Of a DNA stretch of 64,000 bases, positions 3,001 through 61,137 are shown in pieces. The DNA is from a virus. The stretch lies in IMG/VR virus record IMGVR_UViG_3300025018_000100; one strand, given 5' to 3'. The notes under the pieces were generated by a model. That model searched no databases. It had not been told where the DNA came from and saw only the letters and a program-made list of their open reading frames with translations. The position numbers and the translations under genes are program-made. How positions within the stretch are numbered: the stretch's first letter is position 1; every line of letters begins with the position of its first letter.

Positions 3001-4069
3001 AAGCATTTTTACCTCCGGTAAAACCTTTATTACCTTCAAATTCTGCTTTTGTATTATCTAAAGTATTTAAATTATCTTTTATAGTATTTTTACCAAATAA
3101 TCTAATATTTTTAGCTTTTTCTTCAATTCGTGTAAAAAATCTATCGATACTTTGTCCGCTCTCAGTAACAAAACTAGAAATACCTGCTGATAGACTACTA
3201 AAAATCTGAACAGATAGTACCGCAGCTAGTGCTCCAATGTTTCCAGGAGTTTGACTAAAGAAATCTGCTAAACTAGACAAAGGACCGGCTACAGCTTGTC
3301 CGACTTTAGTAGCTAAATCAATAACTTTAGCAGATAATTCTTCTAGACTTTGTTGCGTAGTAGGTAAAACGGTGTTAATAATACTGAATTTACGCTCACC
3401 TTCTTCGATAACTTCATTAATGAAAGCTTGTCTTTTTTCATAATTAGTTAAACTAGATGTTGCAACATTTAATTGTCTAGCATACTTTTCTACCGCAGGG
3501 TCAATACGAGTAAAAATACCTAATTCATCTAAAAGTTCTGGTTCTAACTTAGCCGCACCTCGAACTAATCTTTGAAATGCATCTGTTAATGTTCTACCTA
3601 AGGCACGGCTAGCTTTTAGAGCAACCCCCGTAATTCTTTCTAATTGTTCACCGCCAAATCCAGCAGATAGTGCAATGTTAGCATTTTGAGCAGCTTCTGC
3701 TAAAGTTAACTGACCTTTGGTAATTTCTTGAATTTTAGCAAGAATTTTATTACCGTTAGAGCCTATTTCGTTAGCTAATGTAATAGTACCACGTACAATT
3801 TCTTCTGATTGAGTTGCTCTTTGTAATGCCGCGAATGCCTGTTGCAATGCGAATACGCTAGCAGCCGCACCAGCATAAGCACCAACTAACCCACCTAAGC
3901 CTCTAGCTTGTTGAGAAAAAGCTCTACCTGCACTAGCTTGAGTAGTAGTAAGACGATTACTTTTACTATCAAGTTTATCTACTTCGTTAGATACACCTTT
4001 AATAGCGCTTTTTGTCTTATTACTACCATTAGCTTTTACATTAACATTTACATTAGCATTAGTTGTCAT
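1..4069 (-). CDS. Tape measure protein (T5 pb2-like), partial, runs off the left edge
   Basis: Not in the ORF track because it has no stop in the window. ATG at 4069 reads MTTNANVNVNVKANG...GLGGLVGAYAGAAASVFALQQAF...FQRLVRGAAKLEPELLDELGIFTRID, typical of T5-type TMP N-termini; long coiled-coil-like frame; lies downstream of the tail chaperones. Confidence 0.9.
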   Translation of the reverse strand, partial: MTTNANVNVNVKANGSNKTKSAIKGVSNEVDKLDSKSNRLTTTQASAGRAFSQQARGLGGLVGAYAGAAASVFALQQAFAALQRATQSEEIVRGTITLANEIGSNGNKILAKIQEITKGQLTLAEAAQNANIALSAGFGGEQLERITGVALKASRALGRTLTDAFQRLVRGAAKLEPELLDELGIFTRIDPAVEKYARQLNVATSSLTNYEKRQAFINEVIEEGERKFSIINTVLPTTQQSLEELSAKVIDLATKVGQAVAGPLSSLADFFSQTPGNIGALAAVLSVQIFSSLSAGISSFVTESGQSIDRFFTRIEEKAKNIRLFGKNTIKDNLNTLDNTKAEFEGNKGFTGGKNAFGGKLSPSQFNNLIDNADSLTNQQIRETTPLIKAQIEQENKFIATKQKYLTVQGRTKEQIDAANRSIERATRRVKALEVSYINLNTVMNNSSGLSKGIARSADFIGAAFRRTGLAISAAVSLANKFFLVGSTIQFIASLFGVDILDSVIKFFKSLTEEIDRAKEGAQALAATTFISKNSNLEKLAKELDLDREAREKLAEKYSDVNKQIIEGLTNTSGIRQQFANQLAKDNGTNFAGRNEFRPNKEQFEQAQALSKEEVLRLGVLNQIERLNQTITRLKNKQTKLSGEELRSSRLEVATLEEAVKNLESGKTQLSGIIEEISRTAGIPIQQVADLALQGFIKFNDQVATIGFGGIQASISEISDKGLPKLKTGVGNLVSELGKSINASKSFSDSFASGSLDAEKAAQKLTAITTITSELVKLQEAYTNEYGELDPKLVAIINRLKDQGKEARKITQELQAIEQLSVNITKAFSSQISLVDNLESSGIINLFNGKFAENGIEIAANKAENLVTAINIAKQGSIELAALQKEAASRGEKDLEQNAKIVALGNLRKTTEKALFGAFLKSKEEIQKIAIAEEKRLRESLQQLDIEKQKLEIQKLSNNILLSQEAYDNRNKALEALLTKENALLDISKAYNETQNIKFKKQQQINENKVEELNLANKLLDTELKGKELAIERAALLRDLRLQRTADNQANFPNFGTREDRRNLIAEQAASNLEKELNLINLRIEAEKKKFDNESRIINLEIDNLEAEKTFKAKDNSQKAALLLREKQISEQKSINEQKNLINRLDILDQEKIRADAELAIKKQEIDINKTNKLAALELEKTRLLTVQKEIQALTQFPIELARIFNEFIKTLAGFYGTSNPSLISVANFDEQIDSLNSSIKTSIEQLDSTINATKDLAATQADAATQEANTQDKLRSLKARAIQDEILDIGELAKLQAELNDIKISNLNRENAAELAALQIKIDNKRKEIGINEEEFKNTITQLENEQIKANSNHS

Positions 4070-4081
4070 TATATAACTCTC

Positions 4082-4435
4082 TTATTGTTTAGATTTTTCA
4101 TGAGCATATTTCATATATAAATTAGTACAAATACTTAGTAATTCAAAAACTCTGTATTTATCCTCAATTTTTAATAGGTCCATTATAAATTCTAAACTTG
4201 CATAATCTTTACCATACCAACCAGCACCCATACCGTCAATTTTATCGGGTAAGGTATTAAATAGCATTAAACTTTGTTGGGCTTCTATAGTAAGTTTACT
4301 CGCATCTAAATTATTTTCTCCAAAGTCTTCTGGGATATCCCAGCCCATTTGTTCAAATATAGCTAATTCTTTATCAACATCTATATTAGAGTCACCTGAG
4401 TCTCTTAACCAACTTTGGAAGTATTCTTTAAATTT
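4082..4435 (-). CDS. Tail assembly chaperone, -1 frameshift extension (gpGT-like)
   Basis: The -1 frame from slippery AAATTTAAAG (4435-4426) is open (KFKEYFQSWLRDSGD...EQMGWDIPED) and continues into ORF 4082..4348; located just before the TMP. Confidence 0.8.
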   Translation of the reverse strand, partial: KFKEYFQSWLRDSGDSNIDVDKELAIFEQMGWDIPEDFGENNLDASKLTIEAQQSLMLFNTLPDKIDGMGAGWYGKDYASLEFIMDLLKIEDKYRVFELLSICTNLYMKYAHEKSKQ

Positions 4436-8913: not shown

Positions 8914-9540
8914 TTAGCTAATTAAAGCACGAACTGTTTCAACAGTGTTACCAGTGTTTGAGCCGCCAGATTGTGCAGCAGTAACGGTTACTGTTGCTTT
9001 ACCTGTATTACCCCCACCTGTGGCGAAGTATGCGTTAGAACTAGTGTTAAGAACTGAGAAACTAATTGAGGTGTTAGCATTTGCACTAACAGCCTGATCG
9101 ACTCCGCTTAAATCAGAGTAACTAATTGATAAAGCACCAGTAGAGCCGTGATGAATAACACCGTACTCTGCGTTACTTAATTTAACATCACGAATAGCTA
9201 AGGTAACACTACCACTAGCATCATCAGGTGATCCTACTTCGATAGCTGTGGTTAAACTATGTGCGGCAGCGTTACTACCTTTAATAGTTAAGTTTTTAAC
9301 AGTAACTGTATTAACAGCTGTATTACTTAAGGTTAAACCATTAACGATAACATCGTCTACATCACCAACACCAATAAGTGCGACATCATTCCAGCTTGCA
9401 CTGATTGCGTCATACGTACCTGGATATAGTAAAATGGTTGTACCCTGAGTAAGAGCAGAACTATCAATTTCGCTTACACTTTTGTATTGAGCATCGTCAG
9501 TAAGTTCTGGACTGACTTTATGGATAAATTTTTGTGCCAT
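8914..9540 (-). CDS. Putative capsid decoration / head fibre protein (beta-helix-like)
   Basis: Immediately after the capsid gene, strong RBS, own terminator (8851-8878); LYPGTY followed by beta-helix-like repeats. Confidence 0.55.
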   Translation of the reverse strand: MAQKFIHKVSPELTDDAQYKSVSEIDSSALTQGTTILLYPGTYDAISASWNDVALIGVGDVDDVIVNGLTLSNTAVNTVTVKNLTIKGSNAAAHSLTTAIEVGSPDDASGSVTLAIRDVKLSNAEYGVIHHGSTGALSISYSDLSGVDQAVSANANTSISFSVLNTSSNAYFATGGGNTGKATVTVTAAQSGGSNTGNTVETVRALIS

Positions 9541-9559
9541 AATTTAATCTCCTGTATTA

Positions 9560-9579
9560 GGGGGAGACTAAGTCTCCCC
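9560..9579. terminator. Hairpin after the capsid gene
   Basis: GGGGAGACT-A-AGTCTCCCC. Confidence 0.55.
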
Positions 9580-9592
9580 CTATATTTTCAAC

Positions 9593-12580
9593 TTAAGCGC
9601 TACGTAATACAGACGCTAGGCTGTACTGGCTACTTAGGGTTGGAGCAGTTGAAGTACCTACAGTTGTAAGTGGCTTCATATCGAAACGAGTGCTCATGTA
9701 AACCGCAGTTACCTGCTGACGAGGATTATACTCGCTTTCAATTTCCATTGCACGACGTTCTGCAATCATAAATCCTGGCTTGTATAATAATAGACCAATA
9801 TGATCATCATTTGCACCTGCAGCGTCTAAGAACTCTGTAATCATTACAGGCATTCCATAAACAGCACCGATGCTACCAGTTAGATAGGTTGCGTTTGGTC
9901 CGTACTTATCAACGGTACGGAAATCAGAGGTCTGAACAAGTTCATTATAACCTTCGATTGTTGTTAAGTAAACTAAATCGTCACCTAACTGTAATCCGTA
10001 CTTACCAAGTTTAGCGCGTGCAGCAGCAATATTTGCTGGAGTAGCTGCTGTAGAAGCTCCACAGTTAACTCTTAATCCTGCAACATCATTAGCAAGAGTA
10101 ACAAGACCCTTCATAACAGATGCATAACCAGCACCAGGAGTAATTGCGTTAGTTGGGCTAGCATTAAACCCTGTTAGGGTTCCATCACCACGAAGTAGTG
10201 ACTTATCGATAGCACGAGCAACACGACGAGCAGCATCAGCTCTTAGGAAGTCAATAAGAGGAAGAACTGTATCTTCCTGCTCATCTTTCGCTAAATGAGT
10301 GGTCGCCATCCATTTGTGTGGAGTAAAGCGAACTGATGATATAGTATTCTGGTTACTAGTTGGAACACGAGTAGCATCATAAGCACCAGTCGCAAAGGTT
10401 CCGTTGGCAAACTGTGCTACATCACCGTCAACATCTTCATTAGTTACAGGAACATCGAAGCTCTTAGCATCTACTTGAATGCGTCGGAACATGGGCACGA
10501 TAACTAATTGCTGTTGCATTTCTTCATAGACAGTGCTAGAAAAGTTGCTTAAGAACTGGTCAACAGTTGTAATGGCTTTCATTTTAGAACCAAAATTGGT
10601 GTCAAAAACTTGCTCGTTATTCTTACCAAGAGCCTTAGCAAGAAATACAGCATTAGCCATTTCTTTATCTGTGAATTGAGCCTTACGTGAAGGATCGTTA
10701 TTTTGATTGTAGACCATCTTAGAATTTTGTAAGGCATTAACAAGCTCTTTCTGCTTCTTAATTTCTTGCATTAGTTCTTCAACTTGGTCGGATAAGCTTG
10801 TATCACCACGAATTTCTTCGTTATCAGCAGCTTTATTCATTGTTTGTTCGGTCTTATTTAGTAAGTCCTGAACTTGAGGTTCCTTAACTTGAGCTACAGA
10901 ATTTGGAGCATTCTCCGCTTTAGCGCCGGTGTTAACTACCATTGGTTCATCAACATTTTGAGTAGGCATATCTTTTTTCTCCTCTTGACTCTCTGCCTTA
11001 TGACCGTTTAAGATTAACTGTAAATTACGGTCGTCAGACTCGGGTAATCCCTTGAGAGCCTTAATTTTTTCAACTACTCTATTTGCTAGAGCGTAGTTAG
11101 TATCATTCCAATCTTTAAAATTGGTTGCAATTAAATTGTATGTGTTGTTTAAAGTAATTTGCTGTTCTTGTGTAGTAGCAGAAGACTTTAAATTATTTAG
11201 ATCGATTTCTTTTAGATTTACATGTTCTACGAAACCTTTCTTAATTTCTTCTCTTTGTTTGTCTGTTAGGTTAGTTACTTTAGCGTGTTTAACCATTTTA
11301 ATATCAAACTTAGTACCAATATCCCAGGTGTTAATTACAGAAAGATCAGTTGCTTTGATAGAAACAGCCTCTCCAATAACTTCACCTTCTACACTTACAG
11401 GTTCAACAATAAAGTTAGGGTTTGTTTGAGTAGCAATATTTTTAATCTTGTGTCGAGAACCATCAAGTTTGACAAAATCATCAGCTTTAAGTTCTCCGGT
11501 TGACATACTTAGTAAGTTAACAAAAGGAATAGCCTTATATGGGTCTGCTTGAGTCTCTTCATCTACGGTTTCTTTGATATTAGAATCTGTAGGAACAGAA
11601 GTATCAGTTTTAGTATTAGGTTGTTCTACTGCTGAGTTTTCGTTTTTATCTTCAACGTCAGCTTTTGTAGATTCACTATCATTAGTTTTTCCTTCTGTAG
11701 GAATTTCTAATTTAACTGTTTCTTCTGCCTGATTCATATCTTTAACTTCTGTTTCAGAAGCTTTATTTTCGGAATTAGGCATATTTTTATTCTCCTCGTC
11801 GGTAAGTAGTTCTTCAATATTATTGAAATTACTTTCAATTTCCATTTCTGGTAGTTTTGAAGAGTCCTTCCAAATTTGAACATCATGACTATGACCATCT
11901 TCAGCAGATTTAATTTCATAATTAACTACATCGTGGTTATGTTTTTGGCCATGAGAGGTGTAAGTTGCGGTACCGTTACCATCCGCATCTACTTCAAATG
12001 TATGATAGTGACCATCTTTATGAATTTCAGAAATTCCGGCCTTAACTACTGTTGTATCTTCGTTTTTATCAACAACTTCTTCTAAGAATGATTTATAATC
12101 CTCATTGTTGTCAAAACTTTTACGAACACTAAACAGACTATCTTGATTACAAGGTACACTTACTATACTAATTTCTAGTAACTCTAGTTCTGTAATATAA
12201 GTGGTATCTGTTTTTCTATCATATCTAGCACGTTTTGGTCGAAATCCTACACTAAAAGCTTTTAAAGCACCGTCTCGAACTAATGTTCTAGTACCGTACT
12301 GTTTTTCAGCAGCTTCGCTGATATCAGCTTCTACGTGAATGCCCTTGTTATCAAGACGCATTTTTGTAACTTTACCAATCGGTTGATCGTGTTTATGTTG
12401 AAGAAGAAGCACAGGGTTTTTTAAGTATTCCTGAGCACCTTTTGTCCAAGCGGAAGGAACAATGACGTCACCGGTTCTATCTCTTGAGACAGTATTTGCA
12501 TATCCTGAGATACTTAAACCTTTACTTTGTTCAGTAGATTTAATTTCCATACTATCTAAATAGAGGGTTTTCTTTGACAT
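9593..12580 (-). CDS. Prohead protease - linker - major capsid protein fusion (HK97 fold), with internal starts at 11782 and 10969
   Basis: N-terminal HK97-type protease (GYANT..DR.GD, NPVLL.QH, LKAFSVGF, LLEISIVSVPCN); C-terminal T5-like capsid; GAGGAG-9nt-ATGCCT at two internal sites. Confidence 0.9.
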   Translation of the reverse strand: MSKKTLYLDSMEIKSTEQSKGLSISGYANTVSRDRTGDVIVPSAWTKGAQEYLKNPVLLLQHKHDQPIGKVTKMRLDNKGIHVEADISEAAEKQYGTRTLVRDGALKAFSVGFRPKRARYDRKTDTTYITELELLEISIVSVPCNQDSLFSVRKSFDNNEDYKSFLEEVVDKNEDTTVVKAGISEIHKDGHYHTFEVDADGNGTATYTSHGQKHNHDVVNYEIKSAEDGHSHDVQIWKDSSKLPEMEIESNFNNIEELLTDEENKNMPNSENKASETEVKDMNQAEETVKLEIPTEGKTNDSESTKADVEDKNENSAVEQPNTKTDTSVPTDSNIKETVDEETQADPYKAIPFVNLLSMSTGELKADDFVKLDGSRHKIKNIATQTNPNFIVEPVSVEGEVIGEAVSIKATDLSVINTWDIGTKFDIKMVKHAKVTNLTDKQREEIKKGFVEHVNLKEIDLNNLKSSATTQEQQITLNNTYNLIATNFKDWNDTNYALANRVVEKIKALKGLPESDDRNLQLILNGHKAESQEEKKDMPTQNVDEPMVVNTGAKAENAPNSVAQVKEPQVQDLLNKTEQTMNKAADNEEIRGDTSLSDQVEELMQEIKKQKELVNALQNSKMVYNQNNDPSRKAQFTDKEMANAVFLAKALGKNNEQVFDTNFGSKMKAITTVDQFLSNFSSTVYEEMQQQLVIVPMFRRIQVDAKSFDVPVTNEDVDGDVAQFANGTFATGAYDATRVPTSNQNTISSVRFTPHKWMATTHLAKDEQEDTVLPLIDFLRADAARRVARAIDKSLLRGDGTLTGFNASPTNAITPGAGYASVMKGLVTLANDVAGLRVNCGASTAATPANIAAARAKLGKYGLQLGDDLVYLTTIEGYNELVQTSDFRTVDKYGPNATYLTGSIGAVYGMPVMITEFLDAAGANDDHIGLLLYKPGFMIAERRAMEIESEYNPRQQVTAVYMSTRFDMKPLTTVGTSTAPTLSSQYSLASVLRSA

Positions 12581-21628: not shown

Positions 21629-22539
21629 TAAACCATATCCTTAGCAGCAGTCAAATATACAGCTGTTCCATTAGATAAATAACTTAATAAAGTTATTCCA
21701 CTTGATAAAGTTAAACTACTTGTTTTAATGTTCCCGTCAATGCTAATATTATTAGCAGAAGTATTAATTAGCTCAATCCACCCAGATTGTCCTATAGCAT
21801 TAGAAATATTTGTAAAATTGATAGTTATATCTTCTGATACTACGCAAGTAAAATTTTGAGCAACATCTAAATTAAAATAACCTTGATTATTGCTTGTAAT
21901 GTTTACTCTTCCTTTATTTGCATACACAGTGCCCCACCTACTAGCTTCATTACCAAAATTAGAAGTTAGATTATTAGTAGGATTAACGTTTCCTCCGATA
22001 TTAATGTTATTCCCAATAGTTACATTCCCGTCAGAGGATAAATTGTTAGCAAAGTATCCTTCTCCTAGAGTATTAACCCAGAAAGTAGTATTATTTGTAT
22101 CGTTCCCAATAAATCCAGAATAAAAATATGCATTTTGACTATACGTGTTAGACCCAGCACCAATTATTGTATTCGAAAAAGTAAAAGAAGGTGCGTGGAA
22201 TACCGCGGCCATATTATGGTCTTGCTTAGGCTGAACAAATAATCTTTCGGCATCTAAACTAGCAAATCCAAAAATTCCTGTTCCTAAAGTCCATACAGCA
22301 TCATTATCAAAATATACAAACCCAGAGTCTGATATTACAGTAGACCCTGTAATATTTAAATCCCCGACGGTAAAATCATTAGTAGATATAGAGGTTGAAA
22401 AAGTGTTACCTGTTACATGTAGATTAGCAGCAGGCGTGACTGTACCAACACCTACACGAACATTAGTTCTATCTACGTGTAGAATACCTGTATTGTCAAC
22501 ACCGGTACCACCCATCTGTGTACTAATTCTCTGTACCAT
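21628..22539 (-). CDS. Tail fibre-like structural protein
   Basis: RVGVGTVTPAANLHVTGN fibre motif; Asn/Thr/Gly-rich. Confidence 0.7.
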   Translation of the reverse strand: MVQRISTQMGGTGVDNTGILHVDRTNVRVGVGTVTPAANLHVTGNTFSTSISTNDFTVGDLNITGSTVISDSGFVYFDNDAVWTLGTGIFGFASLDAERLFVQPKQDHNMAAVFHAPSFTFSNTIIGAGSNTYSQNAYFYSGFIGNDTNNTTFWVNTLGEGYFANNLSSDGNVTIGNNINIGGNVNPTNNLTSNFGNEASRWGTVYANKGRVNITSNNQGYFNLDVAQNFTCVVSEDITINFTNISNAIGQSGWIELINTSANNISIDGNIKTSSLTLSSGITLLSYLSNGTAVYLTAAKDMV

Positions 22540-23006
22540 TAATTACCCTCAAAAAGATCATTCATTAGCTTATCATAATTATTAATCTGAATAGCTACTC
22601 CAGGACCTTGTTCTTTCTTAGGCTTGATATTTGTTTCCACATCGTTAAGATGTTTTAACCAATCAAGTAAATCTTTTTTACTATAAACACCAGTCTCTAG
22701 TGCTTCTTCTAGTTTGTGCTCAATTACTTTGTTTATTACTTGTAATCTCTTACTTCTATTAAGATAGCCCTGATTTAAAATTACACCATTAATATAATTT
22801 TGAACCTCTTTCTTATCTAAAACTGTGGTAACTAAGTCTGGAGATATATCATATTCTTTAGCTATAGCAGAGACGTCTTTTCCTGCCAAACTATCGTTTG
22901 CAATACTTAAATATACTGGATCAAGTTTAGGAGCTTCTAAACTTTTAGTTAAAGCATTATCGCCAGTATCTGGTTCATATACTTTTACATCTGTAGTTCT
23001 AGACAT
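22539..23006 (-). CDS. terS: Terminase small subunit (T5-like)
   Basis: HTH-like N-terminus, GYLNR, KLEEALETGVYSKKDLLD and IQINNY motifs of T5-type TerS. Confidence 0.8.
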   Translation of the reverse strand: MSRTTDVKVYEPDTGDNALTKSLEAPKLDPVYLSIANDSLAGKDVSAIAKEYDISPDLVTTVLDKKEVQNYINGVILNQGYLNRSKRLQVINKVIEHKLEEALETGVYSKKDLLDWLKHLNDVETNIKPKKEQGPGVAIQINNYDKLMNDLFEGN

Positions 23007-29056: not shown

Positions 29057-29373
29057 TATGATTTGCTTATACGTTTGCTCATACGTTTGCTCGGAGAGCA
29101 ACAACGCCGGTAACGCTGAGTAAATTTTATAACTACTATAGGTAAATACTTGTTATTCCTTCAAGGAATAGTTAAACAGTCTTAGATTTTTTGGAAAAAA
29201 TCCCAAATAAAGTTCCTGGGCAGGGGACACATGAAAGTCAAGGTTGTATAGTCTCCATAACCGCCCCCCATGGTTGTATATTATTTCTATAGAAATATAA
29301 AAATAATGCTTGCATTAATAAGATTAAGTGTTATCTTACTTATAGACAATAACCAACGGAAAAGGACTGAAAA

Positions 29374-29691
29374 ATGTTGCAAAGCAAAACGATTTACCTG
29401 AATGACACAACAAAGAAAGATGACAATACCGTGATTTCTTTCGCATATACCGTCCTGGGAGTGGCTCATGGCTCGGTCGCGTTCTTTGCCCTATCACTTG
29501 CGGCGCTTATTCCAGGGCAAGCTATCCCTTTCTTGTTGATTACCTTGGCGGCGGCGCTAATGTCCTATTGGTTCCTGCTGCTGAAAGATGGTTTGGAACA
29601 AGAAAAGAAACCTTTTTATTCTAAGAAAGGGGGGTTGCATTTTTTCCGGGTCGGTCGGTACGGTGCAACGTTCTACCGCACAAAAAAATAA
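29374..29691 (+). CDS. Membrane protein, probably the first pre-early gene
   Basis: Two hydrophobic helices; AAGGA RBS; own promoter and terminator. Confidence 0.7.
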   Translation: MLQSKTIYLNDTTKKDDNTVISFAYTVLGVAHGSVAFFALSLAALIPGQAIPFLLITLAAALMSYWFLLLKDGLEQEKKPFYSKKGGLHFFRVGRYGATFYRTKK

Positions 29692-29697
29692 CAACGT

Positions 29698-29725
29698 AAA
29701 AGGGGAAGCAATTGCTTCCCCTTTT
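29698..29725. terminator. Bidirectional intrinsic terminator
   Basis: AAAAGGGGAAGCAATTGCTTCCCCTTTT. Confidence 0.75.
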
Positions 29726-29781
29726 CTTTATTCTTATTCTACACAAAACTTGTGTATTAGCACCGCCAGGAAACCTTCTCC

Positions 29782-29796
29782 TACCCCTGTAGGGTA
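29782..29796. promoter_or_regulatory. CsoR/RcnR-family-type operator
   Basis: TACCC-CTGTA-GGGTA: TAC/GTA flanking C- and G-tracts. Confidence 0.4.
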
Positions 29797-29880
29797 ACAC
29801 GGTTTTACCATACTTGTAAAGCTAATTTTATTTCGTTGTTTATATTATTTGAGAAATATTATTAGCCAATAAAGGCACCG

Positions 29881-29895
29881 GAACAAAACGTGAAC
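29881..29895. promoter_or_regulatory. Alphaproteobacterial LexA box
   Basis: GAAC-AAAACGT-GAAC matches GAAC-N7-GAAC exactly; a second near-match GAAC-N7-AAAC at 29971-29985. Confidence 0.6.
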
Positions 29896-29915
29896 AAACA
29901 GGGTGCAGCGCAATA

Positions 29916-29949
29916 TGGCATGATAATTGCATAAGCAATTTATATGCCA
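29916..29949. promoter_or_regulatory. Two inverted sigma54 (-24/-12) sites
   Basis: TGGCATGATAATTGCA (+) and TGGCATATAAATTGCT (-), both with GG-N10-GC spacing, 2 bp apart. Confidence 0.65.
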
Positions 29950-30185
29950 TTAAGAATAGATCGCATTAGAGAACAAAAGATAAACATAAAGCATTACTAA
30001 ACTATAGGAATAAGCCTATTTTACACAAAAAATATGGGTTAAAATGAATAGAATATAGATAAACCCAAACTATGCTAAGAATAGATTAACCCATTAATTT
30101 TATTAAATAATATTTTAGTGTTTACATACCTATTAAATGCCTCTATTATAATGCCAGGTAAACAAAACTGGAAAGGACCAAAACA

Positions 30186-30836
30186 ATGGCAATTAAGAGC
30201 AACCACGCATTTTCCCGCACATTACGTAATCAATTGCGAGAAACCTTTAACAACGCGCAATGCGTTTATAAGGATATCCAGGACCAAGTACCGGCGCTCA
30301 TTACCTTAGACAATGGGGAATTTGACCATATACTAGCGCGGGAATTTGCCTATTTGGAAAAGGATATGCAAGCGGCGATTAAGAATGCCGGTTATCCAAA
30401 AACACTTTGGCAAAATTTCGCTATCAATAGCCATGTTAATTGCGCGCGTGTTAGCGCGTCTGGGAATTGGCTAAAAGGACAACAAGAAAAGTCTTTGATG
30501 GTTATCAAACAAGATAACGCGGTGATTGTTCACGCCATGCGATATTTTGCGCGTGTATGGGGTCTTAACGGGAAAAGAAAAATTGTTCTCAAATCCGTCG
30601 CCAACAAAACAAAACATCTTGCAATCAAAGCAAACGAATATGAAGCGCTTTCCGTTCGTGCGGTACGCTTGGAACATACTAAAGGGGATTTAGATAAATT
30701 TAGTATGTCTCACAATTGGATTAAAGAGGGGAAGGAATATAAAAGGCAAATTTTAAAATTCGGGGATGAAACTCCAGAAGCGAAAGCGCATTTAAAGAAA
30801 ATGAAACAGACCATAAAGGAATACATGGTTTACTGA
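30186..30836 (+). CDS. Pre-early protein, possible HNH-like nuclease
   Basis: EFDHIL...VNCARVSASGNWLKG resembles an HNH motif; own promoter, RBS and terminator (30841-30866). Confidence 0.5.
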   Translation: MAIKSNHAFSRTLRNQLRETFNNAQCVYKDIQDQVPALITLDNGEFDHILAREFAYLEKDMQAAIKNAGYPKTLWQNFAINSHVNCARVSASGNWLKGQQEKSLMVIKQDNAVIVHAMRYFARVWGLNGKRKIVLKSVANKTKHLAIKANEYEALSVRAVRLEHTKGDLDKFSMSHNWIKEGKEYKRQILKFGDETPEAKAHLKKMKQTIKEYMVY

Positions 30837-30873
30837 AAAATATGGGGGGAAGCAATTCCCCCCATATACCTAC

Positions 30874-31006
30874 CTGAATTGCGAATGATTATCATTCCTG
30901 ACTGAATTGCGAATGATTATCATTCCTGACTGAATTGCGAATGATTATCATTCCTGACTGAATTGCGAATGATTATCATTCCTGACTGAATTGCGAATGA
31001 TTATCA
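30874..31006 (+). repeat. Tandem array of 28-bp units (4 full + 1 partial), each with a Fur-box-like site
   Basis: CTGAATTGCGAATGATTATCATTCCTGA at 30874, 30902, 30930, 30958 and 30986 (21 nt). Confidence 0.95.
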
Positions 31007-40235: not shown

Positions 40236-40568
40236 ATGGCACAAGCAAAGTTTAAGTGGACGCAGGATGCTTCTCAAAAAGCTGTTTCCATGTATGTCGA
40301 AGCTGACAAGTCTCAAAATTCTCTGGACGATATCGCACGGGCGCTGTCTACAGAAGAGGTGCAAGTCTCTCGGCGGCAGGTTATCGCCAAGCTGACCAGT
40401 GAAAAAGTATATATTCGGCCGGAACCGGCTCCGAAGGCTCCCAAGGACGAGGGTCCGACTAAGGCTGAAATTATGGCACGTATCTCTGCGACCGGTTTTG
40501 ACACAGAGGGTTTTGAAGGTGCTACTAAGCCCGCTCTGACCCGTCTGGCTGTTATGCTGGAGGGCTAA
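40236..40568 (+). CDS. A2: T5 A2-like DNA-binding protein
   Basis: KFKWTQDASQKAVSMY...AKLTSEKVY resembles T5 A2 (KFAWNEENTQKAVSMY...SKLTSAKAY) as recalled. Confidence 0.75.
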   Translation: MAQAKFKWTQDASQKAVSMYVEADKSQNSLDDIARALSTEEVQVSRRQVIAKLTSEKVYIRPEPAPKAPKDEGPTKAEIMARISATGFDTEGFEGATKPALTRLAVMLEG

Positions 40569-56722: not shown

Positions 56723-57571
56723 TAAAAGGTTGAGATTACACCTTTTAGTGAGTTCCTCTTCAAACCGTACCCAAACTACTGCGATATAGTTGGTTAATTT
56801 GACATCCACAGGAAGTATTCCTGTAAGGCCCAAAGCCGCCTTTTAAAGAGTGGCATTTCTCTTAACACGTTATACTACTCATCGAGTCTATTGTCCGTCT
56901 GCTTCGCGAGCAGTTCAATTCCGCTAAGAATTTACGAAGTCTTCCTCGATAACACTCTTAACTTTGCGAGTTTTGAGTGCCCTCATTCTATACAGTGAGG
57001 GATTAGGCTTTTTTCGTACAACGCTGAAGTAGACTTTTGCGTTTTTAATTGGATAACAGGAGTCGAACCTGTGACTTTCTGTGTTGTAAACAGACGCTCT
57101 ACCTACTGAGCTATATCGCTAAAATCTACCGAGATGTGCTACTTCTTTGCTGCTTCGTATATTGTTAGATACGAAATACAACACACCTCCTGTTTTTCGG
57201 CTTGCGGCCTAATTAACCGTTTTTTCGGACAACGTCTCACTACAATAGCGTGAGCCATTCTCGTTAAAACTGCAACCCGCCCTTATGCGCTAACATTCGG
57301 ACTATTTGTTGCTATCCATCAGCTATACATAATAAGCAAGGTTGCGTATTAGATGAGAAGCTGCTACACACCTCTTAGTCCTCAGCGTTGCCCTGGACCT
57401 ATTCTCTTACGAGAACCTAATCTTGCCGTCTTACTTACCACCTAAATCAATAGATGGCCCCTCGCGGGGAAGCCTGGACTTTTATGGTGGGACCATTTCT
57501 GGCGAAAGTTAGTAGAATATACTTTCTTTAGACTACTTACGTAGTTTACCCCATACGACGCCATACCGCCA
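56723..57571 (-). ncRNA. GOLLD-like large ncRNA (~850 nt)
   Basis: ORF-free; 5' GGCGGTA...GTCGT...TAAACTACGTAAGTAG, internal GAGTAGTATAA, 3' AAGGTGTAATCTCAACCTT, matching GOLLD features as I recall them; phage tRNA-cluster context. Confidence 0.65.
57050..57119 (-). tRNA. Degenerate tRNA (Val-like) embedded in the GOLLD-like RNA
   Basis: TAGCTCAGTAGGTAGAGC D-arm and ACAGGTTCGACTCCTGT T-arm; aberrant anticodon loop and acceptor stem. Confidence 0.55.
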
Positions 57572-61061: not shown

Positions 61062-61137
61062 TGGTGTTTCAGGTGGGACTTTAACCCACACGCGAAACGC
61101 TTTAGAGGCGCCTGCTCTAATATTGAGCTACTGAAAC
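61062..61137 (-). tRNA. tRNA with CUA anticodon (amber suppressor)
   Basis: Perfect GTTTCAG/CTGAAAC acceptor plus ACCA; GGCGC-CTCTAAA-GCGTT anticodon arm; own promoter at 61169-61197. Confidence 0.7.

What the first reader, a model, noticed from the sequence alone, without database searches (positions are those of the whole stretch)
29730..30110. ORF-free block of packed binding sites for several different host regulators (candidate decoy/sponge DNA)
Seen within ~380 bp between a terminator and the next promoter: TACACAA-N3-TTGTGTA (29740), TACCC-N5-GGGTA (29782), TTTAC-N7-GTAAA (~29804), GAAC-N7-GAAC (29881), TGCAGCGCA (29904), two inverted TGGCA..TTGC sites with GG-N10-GC spacing (29916-29949), GAAC-N7-AAAC (29971) and ATAGG-N6-CCTAT (30004). 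Known consensus matches: alphaproteobacterial LexA (GAAC-N7-GAAC), sigma54 -24/-12, CsoR/RcnR-type operator and, more weakly, PhaR (TGCRNYGCA). Two sigma54 sites facing each other 2 bp apart would be poor promoters, and most sites are far from any -35/-10. Inference: the first-injected DNA carries a sampler of host operators. It could titrate regulators once the genome is amplified, coat the DNA end with host proteins (protection or a ratchet for DNA entry), or sense host state. I know of no described phage system like this.
Basis: partly seen in the sequence, partly recalled or inferred. Interest (0 to 1): 0.85.

Follow-up and report, generated by a model that had tools for sequence, protein, structure and literature searches.

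The report
Host LexA site in T5-like phage spacer
This gene-free spacer in a distant T5-like phage of an alphaproteobacterium carries a genuine docking site for the host's DNA-damage repressor LexA, next to a sigma-54-type promoter and a DnaA box. It looks like the counterpart of the known repeat regions in T5's first-injected DNA, and most of the other "operators" listed look like chance.

Summary
Window 29692-30185 has no ORF under codes 11, 4 or TAG=Q. It lies between a terminator (29698-25) and a sigma-70 promoter (30121-49), and every listed motif is present.

Only part of it exceeds chance.
- **LexA box.** GAACAAAACGTGAACAAA (29881-98) is the alphaproteobacterial LexA box. The 18-mer occurs in at least 119 IMG/VR contigs, against 13 for a shuffled control. 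In Alphaproteobacteria it lies upstream of imuA and umuD-like genes. In 38 relatives it is about 11-fold enriched on the early-gene side.
- **Sigma-54-type palindrome (29915-50).** It is non-random, and similar -24/-12 sites follow LexA boxes in other phage contigs.
- **DnaA box (30019).** It keeps a spacing of about 140-150 nt from the LexA box in three lineages.
- **CsoR-, PhaR-like and other 5-bp palindromes.** They are not conserved and not above chance.

The phage is T5-like (A2 homologue, T5-type small terminase). The next gap holds a Fur-box-like array homologous to T5's injection-stop repeats. T5's repeat regions (Davison) are therefore the closest described system.

This scan had already noted LexA and Fur-like sites in T5 on other DNA. 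New here is that the LexA site is of the host's own type. A decoy function is not shown.

The parts
29698..29725 (+). Rho-independent terminator ending the upstream + strand genes (bidirectional hairpin)
   Evidence: 12-bp stem, 6 G-C pairs, T run; inverted repeat I2, 14 nt, 100% complementary
29740..29756 (.). Palindrome TACACAA-N3-TTGTGTA. Both halves are one mismatch from a DnaA box. Not conserved in relatives.
   Evidence: no homology; fold z -1.2
29755..29774 (+). TATTAGCACCGCCAGGAAAC: probable decayed copy of the 'TATTAGCACCGCC-T-GGAAC...' left flank that precedes LexA boxes in other phage contigs (L106, L116, L122)
   Evidence: contexts; direct repeat D4 (29760 / 29875)
29782..29820 (.). 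TACCC-N5-GGGTA and TTTAC-N7-GTAAA, the 'CsoR-like' and neighbouring 5-bp palindromes. No support beyond their presence.
   Evidence: z -1.2; not conserved
29875..29906 (+). Host LexA operator of alphaproteobacterial type: GAACAAAACGTGAAC(AAA) at 29881-29898, bracketed by the 5-bp inverted repeat GCACC / GGTGC
   Evidence: unique in the window; at least 119 against 13 control hits in IMG/VR; upstream of imuA, umuD-like and dnaE genes in Alphaproteobacteria; enriched in relatives; only conserved segment of the block; motif per PMC3091678 and PMC8565304
29915..29950 (.). 16-bp imperfect inverted repeat. Each arm reads as a sigma-54-type -24/-12 element: + strand TGGCATGATAATTGCA (11 of 12 consensus positions), - strand TGGCATATAAATTGCT (10 of 12).
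   Evidence: I3, 81%; z -3.9; unique in the window; the same promoter type follows LexA boxes in other phage contigs; L036 has TGGCATGATTATTGCA; L183 has three TGGCATG-N4-TTTKC copies, one with the -12 GC
29971..29991 (+). Degenerate second copy of the GAAC repeat (GAACAAAAGATAAACATAAAG), 90 bp after the first
   Evidence: direct repeat D3, 76% identity
30019..30027 (+). Perfect DnaA box TTTTACACA, 138 nt after the LexA box. The same orientation and a spacing of 149-150 nt occur in two other lineages.
   Evidence: consensus TTWTNCACA as quoted in 10.1101/866236
30027..30101 (.). Lineage-specific repeats: GGGTTAA / TTAACCC inverted repeat, ATAGATWAACCCA x2, TAAGAATAGAT x2. No function assigned.
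   Evidence: I5, D5, D6; fold z -1.5
30121..30149 (+). Sigma-70-type promoter (TTTACA-17-TATTAT) for the next gene
30186..30836 (+). 216-aa gene with no sequence relatives, its own promoter and its own terminator (30840-30867). Possibly a His-Me/HNH-type nuclease. It separates this block from the Fur-like array.
   Evidence: no relatives; Atlas leads to HNH/GmrSD_C, TM 0.35-0.49, a lead only; weak match, E 0.028, to the syntenic protein of L183, which carries an HNH-like CHCG...DH motif; Pfam HNH only E 0.47
30874..31006 (+). 28-nt x 4.8 tandem array. Each unit holds the Fur-box-like palindrome GAATGAT-T-ATCATTC. It is homologous to direct repeat C and palindromes E-I of the T5 injection-stop region. 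It lies outside the finding but belongs to the same system.
   Evidence: blastn to T5-like phages HMD-P4 and KEY only and to T5 9508-9630; T5 annotation

Best explanation
The block is the untranslated control ("repeat") region between two transcription units in the early arm of a distant T5-like phage that infects an alphaproteobacterium.

Its working core is short, 29875-30027:
- a consensus operator for the host SOS repressor LexA
- about 20 bp further on, a sigma-54-type -24/-12 promoter element that sits inside a 16-bp imperfect palindrome
- a DnaA box 138 bp downstream of the LexA box
- then the ordinary sigma-70 promoter of the next gene.

Together with the Fur-box-like tandem array in the next gap, this reproduces the LexA / DnaA / Fur-like set found in the injection-stop repeat region of T5. 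The difference is that the LexA site is of the type its own host's LexA reads.

Most likely mechanism (inferred, not shown). Pre-existing host LexA, and probably DnaA and the sigma-54 holoenzyme, dock on this DNA soon after entry. LexA bound at about -45 to -60 of the sigma-54 element keeps that promoter shut or marks the DNA. LexA is then cleaved when the infection or prior damage triggers SOS. On this reading the block is a host-state-sensing hub rather than a passive decoy.

The remaining small palindromes are chance or lineage-specific.
For: Shown.
- The region is ORF-free and bounded by a terminator and a promoter.
- In genome contigs about 15 of 50 hits are Alphaproteobacteria. There the motif lies upstream of ImuA (3 loci, NF033429), upstream of a UmuD-like S24 peptidase and upstream of dnaE; in two of these loci it follows a promoter-like -35/-10.
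- GTTC/GAAC-N7 direct repeats are the published alphaproteobacterial LexA motif (PMC3091678, PMC8565304).
- In 38 non-redundant relatives found through the small terminase there are 34 boxes in 139 kb on the early side. The structural side has 2 in 149 kb, and shuffles give 3.1 +/- 1.8. Of the 34 boxes, 20 lie outside long open frames.
- The LexA box is the only part of the block with detectable homology elsewhere.
- The palindrome folds far better than shuffles (z -3.9).
- Sigma-54-type sites are about 11-fold enriched near LexA boxes. In all but two distinct contexts the LexA box lies 25-250 nt upstream on the same strand. In the contigs inspected an RBS and ATG follow 100-170 nt later.
- The DnaA box lies at +138, +149 and +150 nt in three lineages.
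- T5-likeness: capsid/protease about 29% and TerL about 40% identical to T5-like phages. There is a T5-type small terminase. The A2 homologue is 32% identical to T5 A2, E 4e-8, and matches phrog_1725.
- The Fur-like array matches only T5-like phages in the phage collection, in their injection-stop region.
- T5 palindrome D (9330-9349) reads TACTGTATAAATATACAGTA, an E. coli-type CTGT-N8-ACAG SOS box, next to the DnaA boxes. HMD-P4 has the same arrangement.

Inferred: binding of LexA, DnaA and the sigma-54 holoenzyme, the gating action, and the timing.
Against: - No sigma-70 promoter overlaps the LexA box. The geometry is therefore not the classical operator-over-promoter one.
- Box-to-sigma-54 distances in other phages vary from 25 to 250 nt.
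- In the closest relative with comparable motifs (L183), two of three TGGCATG copies lack the -12 GC.
- It is unknown whether the host has rpoN or an activator protein for such a promoter.
- The next gene already has a good sigma-70 promoter.
- Relatives carry up to 5-8 tandem boxes at 11-bp phasing, plus mirrored arrays. That is more than simple repression needs and fits avidity or titration models better.
- T5 membership features are only partly met. There is a single perfect DnaA box, no 40-bp inverted-repeat pair, and no A1-sized ORF in the window. The A2 gene lies 10 kb further right.
Confidence: 0.5

Rival explanations
1. Decoy or sponge. The sites exist to titrate LexA, and Fur next door, once the genome is amplified. 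That would switch on host SOS and iron regulons without damage or starvation.
For: - The LexA box does not overlap a sigma-70 promoter.
- Relatives carry arrays of 5-8 boxes at 11-bp phasing and mirrored sets.
- The neighbouring gap has 4.8 Fur-like units with no gene to regulate.
- Multicopy Fur boxes are known to titrate Fur in vivo (the Fur titration assay; my own knowledge).
- Other first-reader notes report tandem alphaproteobacterial LexA boxes in apparently lytic phages (unchecked).
Against: - This phage has only one strong LexA box in 64 kb, so titration would need hundreds of genome copies late in infection.
- No experiment bears on it.
- Copy number differs widely between close relatives, which argues against a tuned stoichiometric sponge.
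- The conserved LexA-to-DnaA-box spacing and the adjacent sigma-54 element suggest an organised complex or promoter.
Confidence: 0.15
2. DNA-entry pause site of the T5 type. Host proteins (LexA, DnaA, Fur) bound to this and the next gap hold or pause the entering genome at the end of a first-transferred segment, as Davison proposed for DnaA at the T5 injection stop signal.
For: - The phage is T5-like and has an A2 homologue.
- The Fur-like array is homologous to the T5 repeats that end at the 7.9% nick.
- The same triad of site types is present.
- The block lies 5-7 kb from the strand-switch point at about 24.4 kb. That point would be the left end if the terminal repeat were collapsed in the assembly.
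Against: - The genome ends and any terminal repeat are unknown (contigs only).
- A2, which must be expressed from first-transferred DNA in T5, lies at 40.2 kb, beyond this block.
- No A1-sized gene was seen.
- T5's paired DnaA boxes and long inverted repeats are absent.
- The pause mechanism is unproven even in T5.
Confidence: 0.15
3. Replication origin. The DnaA box, an AT-rich stretch (29820-29870) and repeats form a phage origin, and the GAAC repeats are iterons for an initiator.
For: - There is a perfect DnaA box.
- All four perfect DnaA boxes of the 64 kb lie between 30.0 and 33.8 kb.
- Relatives have tandem repeats with 11-bp phasing.
- The core is flanked by AT-rich DNA.
Against: - The same 18-mer lies upstream of SOS genes in bacterial chromosomes, so LexA explains it better than a phage initiator.
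- DnaA boxes overall are at or below the chance rate in the window (4 found, about 10 expected by base composition, my estimate). In relatives their rate is about what base composition predicts (my estimate).
- No replication genes lie nearby.
- T5 origins map mid-genome (10.1101/866236).
Confidence: 0.07
4. The GAAC arrays are enhancer sites for a sigma-54 activator rather than LexA sites.
For: They lie 25-250 nt upstream of sigma-54-type promoters on the same strand, often in multiple copies. This is the usual enhancer geometry.
Against: In two of the bacterial loci the identical sequence directly follows a promoter-like -35/-10 upstream of imuA, and in a third it overlaps the start of a umuD-like gene. 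That is repressor geometry and a LexA regulon signature. It also matches the published LexA motif.
Confidence: 0.06
5. Nothing beyond a terminator, a spacer and a promoter; the motif matches are coincidence.
For: Most short palindromes are not above chance and not conserved.
Against: There is an exact LexA 18-mer, its enrichment in relatives, the non-random palindrome and the conserved DnaA-box spacing.
Confidence: 0.05

Closest known systems
Untranslated Repeat Regions 1-3 of the phage T5 left terminal repeat, including the injection stop signal (Heusterspreute 1987; Wang 2005; Davison, bioRxiv 10.1101/866236)
   Same: - Gene-free blocks in the early arm of a T5-type genome, packed with palindromes, inverted repeats and direct repeats.
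- A DnaA box.
- A LexA-type box: T5 palindrome D reads as an E. coli SOS box.
- A Fur-box-like repeat array that is alignable between T5-like phages and this window.
- Blocks split by a small inserted gene. In T5 an HNH endonuclease separates RR1 and RR2.
- Host-protein binding (DnaA) has already been proposed for T5.
   Different: - The LexA box is the alphaproteobacterial direct repeat, not CTGT-N8-ACAG.
- There is one DnaA box instead of eight paired ones.
- There are no 40-bp IRC/IRD arms with a 52-bp spacer.
- A sigma-54-type element is present.
- The order of repeats is not conserved among relatives.
- The position relative to genome ends is unknown.
- A2 lies 10 kb away and no A1 was seen.
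LexA-controlled phage promoters (GIL01 P1 with gp7, PMC4551915; CTXphi and coliphage 186 tum from my own knowledge)
   Same: The phage uses the host's own LexA operator to read SOS status.
   Different: Those are temperate phages in which the box overlaps a defined promoter of the lytic switch. Here the phage looks virulent (T5-like), the box overlaps no sigma-70 promoter, and relatives carry tandem arrays.
Host CtrA-binding sites in phages of Alphaproteobacteria (PMC9437464; seen, abstract only)
   Same: Phages of the same host class carry binding sites for a host global regulator, so as to time their own expression.
   Different: It is a different regulator with a different proposed logic (lytic deferment tied to the cell cycle). 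I did not test for CtrA boxes beyond one consensus pattern, which gave no hit.
Fur titration by multicopy Fur boxes (FURTA; my own knowledge)
   Same: It gives a precedent that cloned operator arrays can sponge a global repressor.
   Different: It is a laboratory assay, not a described phage strategy, and it concerns the neighbouring array rather than this block.

Membership tests
T5-type untranslated repeat region / injection stop signal | Lies in the terminal repeat (first-step-transfer DNA) of a T5-like genome | not testable with these tools
   Only assembled contigs are available for the source runs. The record could not be searched whole. The strand-switch point at about 24.4 kb is compatible with a collapsed repeat start, but this is not shown.
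T5-type untranslated repeat region / injection stop signal | The phage is T5-like and encodes the pre-early proteins A1 and A2 | tested here: inconclusive
   The A2 homologue at 40236-40568 is 32% identical to T5 A2 (E 4e-8). There is a T5-type small terminase. TerL is about 40% and the capsid about 29% identical to T5-like phages. No ORF over 250 aa exists between 24.5 and 64 kb that could be A1.
T5-type untranslated repeat region / injection stop signal | Gene-free block dense in palindromes, inverted repeats and direct repeats | tested here: met
T5-type untranslated repeat region / injection stop signal | Paired DnaA boxes inside long inverted repeats (IRC/IRD) with a 52-bp spacer | tested here: not met
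   There is one perfect DnaA box (30019) and two one-mismatch halves in a 7-bp palindrome. There are no 40-bp arms.
T5-type untranslated repeat region / injection stop signal | Direct repeat C / palindrome E-I type units (GCGAAT-ATTATCATTC) | tested here: met
   They are present in the adjacent gap (30874-31006), not inside the finding. blastn matches only T5-like phages, in their stop-signal region.
Alphaproteobacterial LexA operator (SOS box) | Direct repeat GAAC-N7-GAAC (GTTC-N7-GTTC) | tested here: met
   29881-29895; motif as published
Alphaproteobacterial LexA operator (SOS box) | The same sequence lies upstream of SOS genes in the host class | tested here: met
   The 18-mer lies upstream of ImuA (L135, L159, L144), a UmuD-like protein (L168, SAR116) and dnaE (L160, L133) in Alphaproteobacteria.
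Alphaproteobacterial LexA operator (SOS box) | LexA binds it and represses a promoter | not testable with these tools
   No binding data exist. No sigma-70 promoter overlaps it. It abuts a sigma-54-type element.
Sigma-54 promoter | TGGCAC-N5-TTGCW with GG and GC 10 nt apart | tested here: met
   + strand 29916-31 matches 11 of 12 positions; - strand 29950-35 matches 10 of 12.
Sigma-54 promoter | Kept in relatives, and used with an activator in an rpoN+ host | tested here: inconclusive
   The same promoter type recurs after LexA boxes in about 5 phage lineages. In L183 only 1 of 3 related copies keeps the -12 GC. The host, rpoN and any activator are unknown.
CsoR/RcnR-type and PhaR-type operators | Operator-like palindrome kept under selection | tested here: not met
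   Pattern matches only. They are absent from relatives. The hairpins are no better than shuffles. TGCAGCGCA overlaps the arm of the inverted repeat around the LexA box and a lineage-specific motif.

The most novel reading that the evidence does not exclude
T5-like phages of different host classes keep a landing pad for pre-existing host DNA-binding proteins on their early-entering DNA: LexA, DnaA, a Fur-like binder, and here perhaps the sigma-54 holoenzyme. The LexA site is re-written to match each host's LexA. The bound complex controls DNA entry (the unexplained T5 injection pause) or sponges the host's SOS and iron repressors, rather than regulating a phage gene.
Probability: 0.2. Interest if true: 0.85.

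Novelty: new variant of a known kind. Interest (0 to 1): 0.55.

Why it matters
T5's two-step DNA injection has lacked a mechanism for about 60 years. Its stop region is known only as a thicket of repeats with DnaA boxes.

Here a very distant T5-like lineage keeps the Fur-box-like repeats but carries a different LexA box, the one its alphaproteobacterial host reads. This argues that LexA binding itself, and not merely an inherited sequence, is under selection.

That turns a sequence curiosity into cheap tests. One is gel shifts with LexA, Fur and DnaA. Another is infection of lexA(non-cleavable), fur or dnaA hosts with T5.

The work also shows that the alphaproteobacterial SOS box is widespread in aquatic phage contigs, often in tandem arrays and often just upstream of sigma-54-type promoters. 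I could not find this pattern described.

Tried and rejected
- **Rfam.** Only sub-threshold terminator-like hits fall in the block.
- **Alternative genetic codes.** No ORF appears.
- **Relatives through the flanking genes.** The 216-aa protein has no relatives. Homologues of the 211-aa protein lie in non-syntenic phages.
- **L002.** It is 100% identical to the window and so uninformative.
- **The 36-nt palindrome.** It has no exact match in IMG/VR.
- **Whole-record search of L001, L193 and L238.** The records are not held.
- **Sequencing runs.** Aquifer metagenomes, kept as contigs only. Read depth and molecule ends could not be examined, and I did not lay the reads.
- **'TTGCGAATGATT' in relatives.** The count of 29 loci is mostly a coding coincidence inside the small terminase gene (IANDYL). 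Only about 8 hits are non-coding.
- **DnaA boxes as a class.** They are not enriched in the window and occur at about the composition-expected rate in relatives (my estimate). Only the conserved spacing of one box is notable.
- **The local Pfam copy.** It lacks the T5_A2 model quoted by the look-up of encoding contigs, so I verified A2 by BLASTP and PHROGs instead.
- **HNH assignment of the 216-aa protein.** It rests on Atlas leads and an E 0.028 pairwise match only, so it is not claimed.
- **blastn of the 30-nt LexA segment against cultured phages.** It gave only borderline hits (E 8), though two are roseophages with matches in unannotated DNA.
Full report
**What the window is**

The 64 kb comes from a phage. 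Structural genes fill 1-24285 on the minus strand. They include a fused prohead protease/HK97 capsid, a portal, a terminase and a DUF7483 fibre. Small genes with their own promoters and terminators follow on the plus strand from 24578.

- The capsid/protease is about 29% and TerL about 40% identical to T5-like Demerecviridae.
- Precomputed Pfam hits name a T5-type small terminase (22539-23006) and a T5 A2 protein (40236-40568).
- I confirmed A2 by BLASTP against T5 A2 (32% over 95 aa, E 4e-8) and by phrog_1725.
- The same DNA is seen on a 200.7-kb metagenome contig, and the runs that hold it are aquifer metagenomes.
- The window also holds a GOLLD RNA and a CTA-anticodon tRNA.

**Checking the observation**

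29692-30185 has no credible ORF under three codes. It begins after a strong terminator (29698-25) and ends at a TTTACA-17-TATTAT promoter (30121-49).

Statistically the picture is mixed.
- 5-bp-arm inverted repeats are about twice the shuffled count (19 against 8.8 +/- 3.9), but 6- and 7-bp arms are not in excess.
- Only 29870-29960 folds better than shuffles (z -3.9). The left and right thirds do not.
- The GAAC-N7-GAAC site, the TGGCA-N6-TTGC pair and two of the palindromes are unique in the 64 kb.
- A 20-pattern consensus scan ranks this region first of all 381-bp windows. I built that library after reading the finding.

**The LexA site is real**

A shuffled 18-mer of the same composition gives 13.

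The contexts are non-coding: after terminators and before genes. The motif is often in tandem at 11-bp phasing, in contigs of 24-63% G+C.

In one-genome-per-species bacterial DNA it occurs 50 times. About 15 of these are in Alphaproteobacteria. There it lies upstream of ImuA (three loci), of a UmuD-like S24 peptidase in a SAR116 genome, and of dnaE; in two of the loci it directly follows a promoter-like -35/-10. These are classical SOS genes.

GTTC/GAAC-N7 direct repeats are the published alphaproteobacterial LexA motif (PMC3091678, PMC8565304).

**Relatives**

The flanking genes gave no syntenic relatives. The small terminase gave 236, mostly marine.

- In 38 non-redundant loci there are 34 GAAC-N7-GAAC boxes in 139 kb on the early-gene side. 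The structural side has 2 in 149 kb, and shuffles give 3.1 +/- 1.8.
- Of the 34 boxes, 20 lie outside long open frames, although such frames cover 78% of that DNA.
- Copy number ranges from 1 to 11.
- In the L007/L183 phage, five to eight tandem boxes in one gap and five inverted ones in the next gap bracket an HNH-like gene.
Two other lineages have one in the same orientation at +149 and +150. The sequence in between does not align.

**The sigma-54-like palindrome**

Its arms match the -24/-12 consensus at 11 of 12 and 10 of 12 positions.

- In L183 a related motif (GCAATATGGCATGA...) occurs three times, but only one copy keeps the -12 GC.
- Across all fetched phage loci, TGGCAY-N5-TTGCW is about 11-fold enriched within 300 nt of LexA boxes (12 near, 8 far; control words give 0.6-fold).
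- In all but two of the 13 distinct contexts the LexA box lies 25-250 nt upstream on the same strand. In the contigs inspected an RBS and ATG follow 100-170 nt downstream.
- One contig carries TGGCATGATTATTGCA, almost the window's sequence.

I therefore treat the rightward element as a plausible real promoter and its mirror as a by-product of the palindrome. This is not proven.

**What is not supported**

The CsoR-, PhaR-like, TTTAC-N7-GTAAA and ATAGG-N6-CCTAT palindromes are absent from relatives and are not structurally unusual.

TGCAGCGCA overlaps the right arm of a 5-bp inverted repeat (GCACC...GGTGC) around the LexA box. 29755-74 looks like a decayed copy of a LexA-box left flank seen in other contigs.

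**Link to T5**

The next gap (30874-31006) holds 4.8 copies of a 28-nt unit with the palindrome GAATGAT-T-ATCATTC.

- In the 50,697-record phage collection, the 2-kb query containing it matched only T5-like phages, through this array. In HMD-P4 the match lies in a 1.8-kb gene-free stretch.
- It aligns to T5 9508-9630, that is direct repeat C and palindromes E-I, just left of the 7.9% nick.
- Davison describes three conserved untranslated repeat regions in the T5 terminal repeat, with eight DnaA boxes. He proposes that DnaA binding stops injection. He mentions neither LexA nor Fur.
- In T5 and HMD-P4, palindrome D reads as a near-perfect E. coli SOS box directly beside the DnaA boxes, and the direct repeat C units look like Fur boxes.
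- Earlier follow-ups in this scan reached the same reading on coliphage windows. That part is a repeat, not independent support.

New here is that a lineage with about 30-40% protein identity to T5, infecting another bacterial class, keeps the Fur-like repeats but has the LexA box of its own host.

**How it probably works**

I commit to a host-state-sensing control region. LexA, and probably DnaA and the sigma-54 holoenzyme, dock on this DNA early. LexA at about -45 to -60 of the sigma-54 element shuts it or marks the DNA until SOS cleavage.

This is inference. The tandem arrays in relatives, and the lack of a promoter over the box, leave room for the sponge reading and for the T5-style pause reading, and I keep both as rivals.

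Whether this DNA enters first cannot be decided. A2 lies 10 kb further right, no A1-sized gene is present, and no reads were available to map the ends.

**Verdict**

This is a new variant of a known kind, the T5 repeat regions, with one clearly functional-looking host operator and two moderately supported partners. The 'sampler of many operators' is overstated.

Noticed in passing
window 30874-31006: A 28-nt x 4.8 perfect tandem array of a Fur-box-like palindrome. Its unit is 18 of 19 identical to the repeat unit of T5-like phage HMD-P4 (TGCGAAT-T/G-ATTATCATTCC).
   Followed up: partly
L004 (T5, AY587007) 9330-9349 and 9468-9640; L003 (HMD-P4) about 3760-4150: T5 'palindrome D' is a near-consensus E. 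coli LexA SOS box next to the DnaA boxes. Direct repeat C and palindromes E-I look like Fur boxes. Neither is mentioned in Davison's preprint.
   Followed up: partly
IMG/VR loci L012-L130: The alphaproteobacterial SOS box 18-mer is widespread in aquatic viral contigs, often as 11-bp-phased tandem arrays of 3-8 copies. It is often preceded by a conserved flank (T)AGCGCCAGCTG after a G+C-rich hairpin.
   Followed up: partly
L183 2600-4400 (same phage as L007): Two gene-free blocks with oppositely oriented LexA-box arrays bracket an HNH-like gene. The second block also has four copies of a 17-nt repeat (GCAGTGCAGCAAATGGT) and three TGGCATG-N4-TTT motifs. The mirror layout recalls T5 IRC-IRD / IRD'-IRC'.
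   Followed up: partly
window 29374-29691: A 105-aa ORF with two hydrophobic helices and clearly higher G+C than its surroundings. The metagenome gene caller did not call it, so the uncalled stretch there is 1.13 kb (29057-30185).
   Followed up: no
window 56727-57189 (-), 57052-57117 (-): A GOLLD RNA (188 bits, full length) with a tRNA-like element embedded in it.
   Followed up: no
window 61062-61137 (-): A tRNA with anticodon CTA, which reads TAG (ARAGORN calls it Pyl). It may be a suppressor tRNA. TAG recoding did not open an ORF in the block studied.
   Followed up: partly
window 30019, 31466, 33243, 33777: All four perfect DnaA boxes (TTWTNCACA) of the 64 kb fall within 3.8 kb. The total count is below the composition expectation of about 10.
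   Followed up: no
window 29062-29092: A tandem repeat TTTGCTCATACG x 2.6 at the start of the preceding 317-bp gap.
   Followed up: no
L006 8060-8440 (IMGVR_UViG_2029527006_000001, 153 kb): A cluster of five Fur-box-like sites (GAGAATGATT..., GCGAATGATTATCATTCC) in a gene-poor stretch of an unrelated, higher-G+C viral contig.
   Followed up: no
L019 4520-4640, L036 1750-1880, L072 8760-8850: Other phage contigs place their own tandem repeat families (for example CACAGTGTTGCA x5, CATGACTGCAATAGTTAG x5) between LexA boxes and sigma-54-type promoters. These may be enhancer sites.
   Followed up: no
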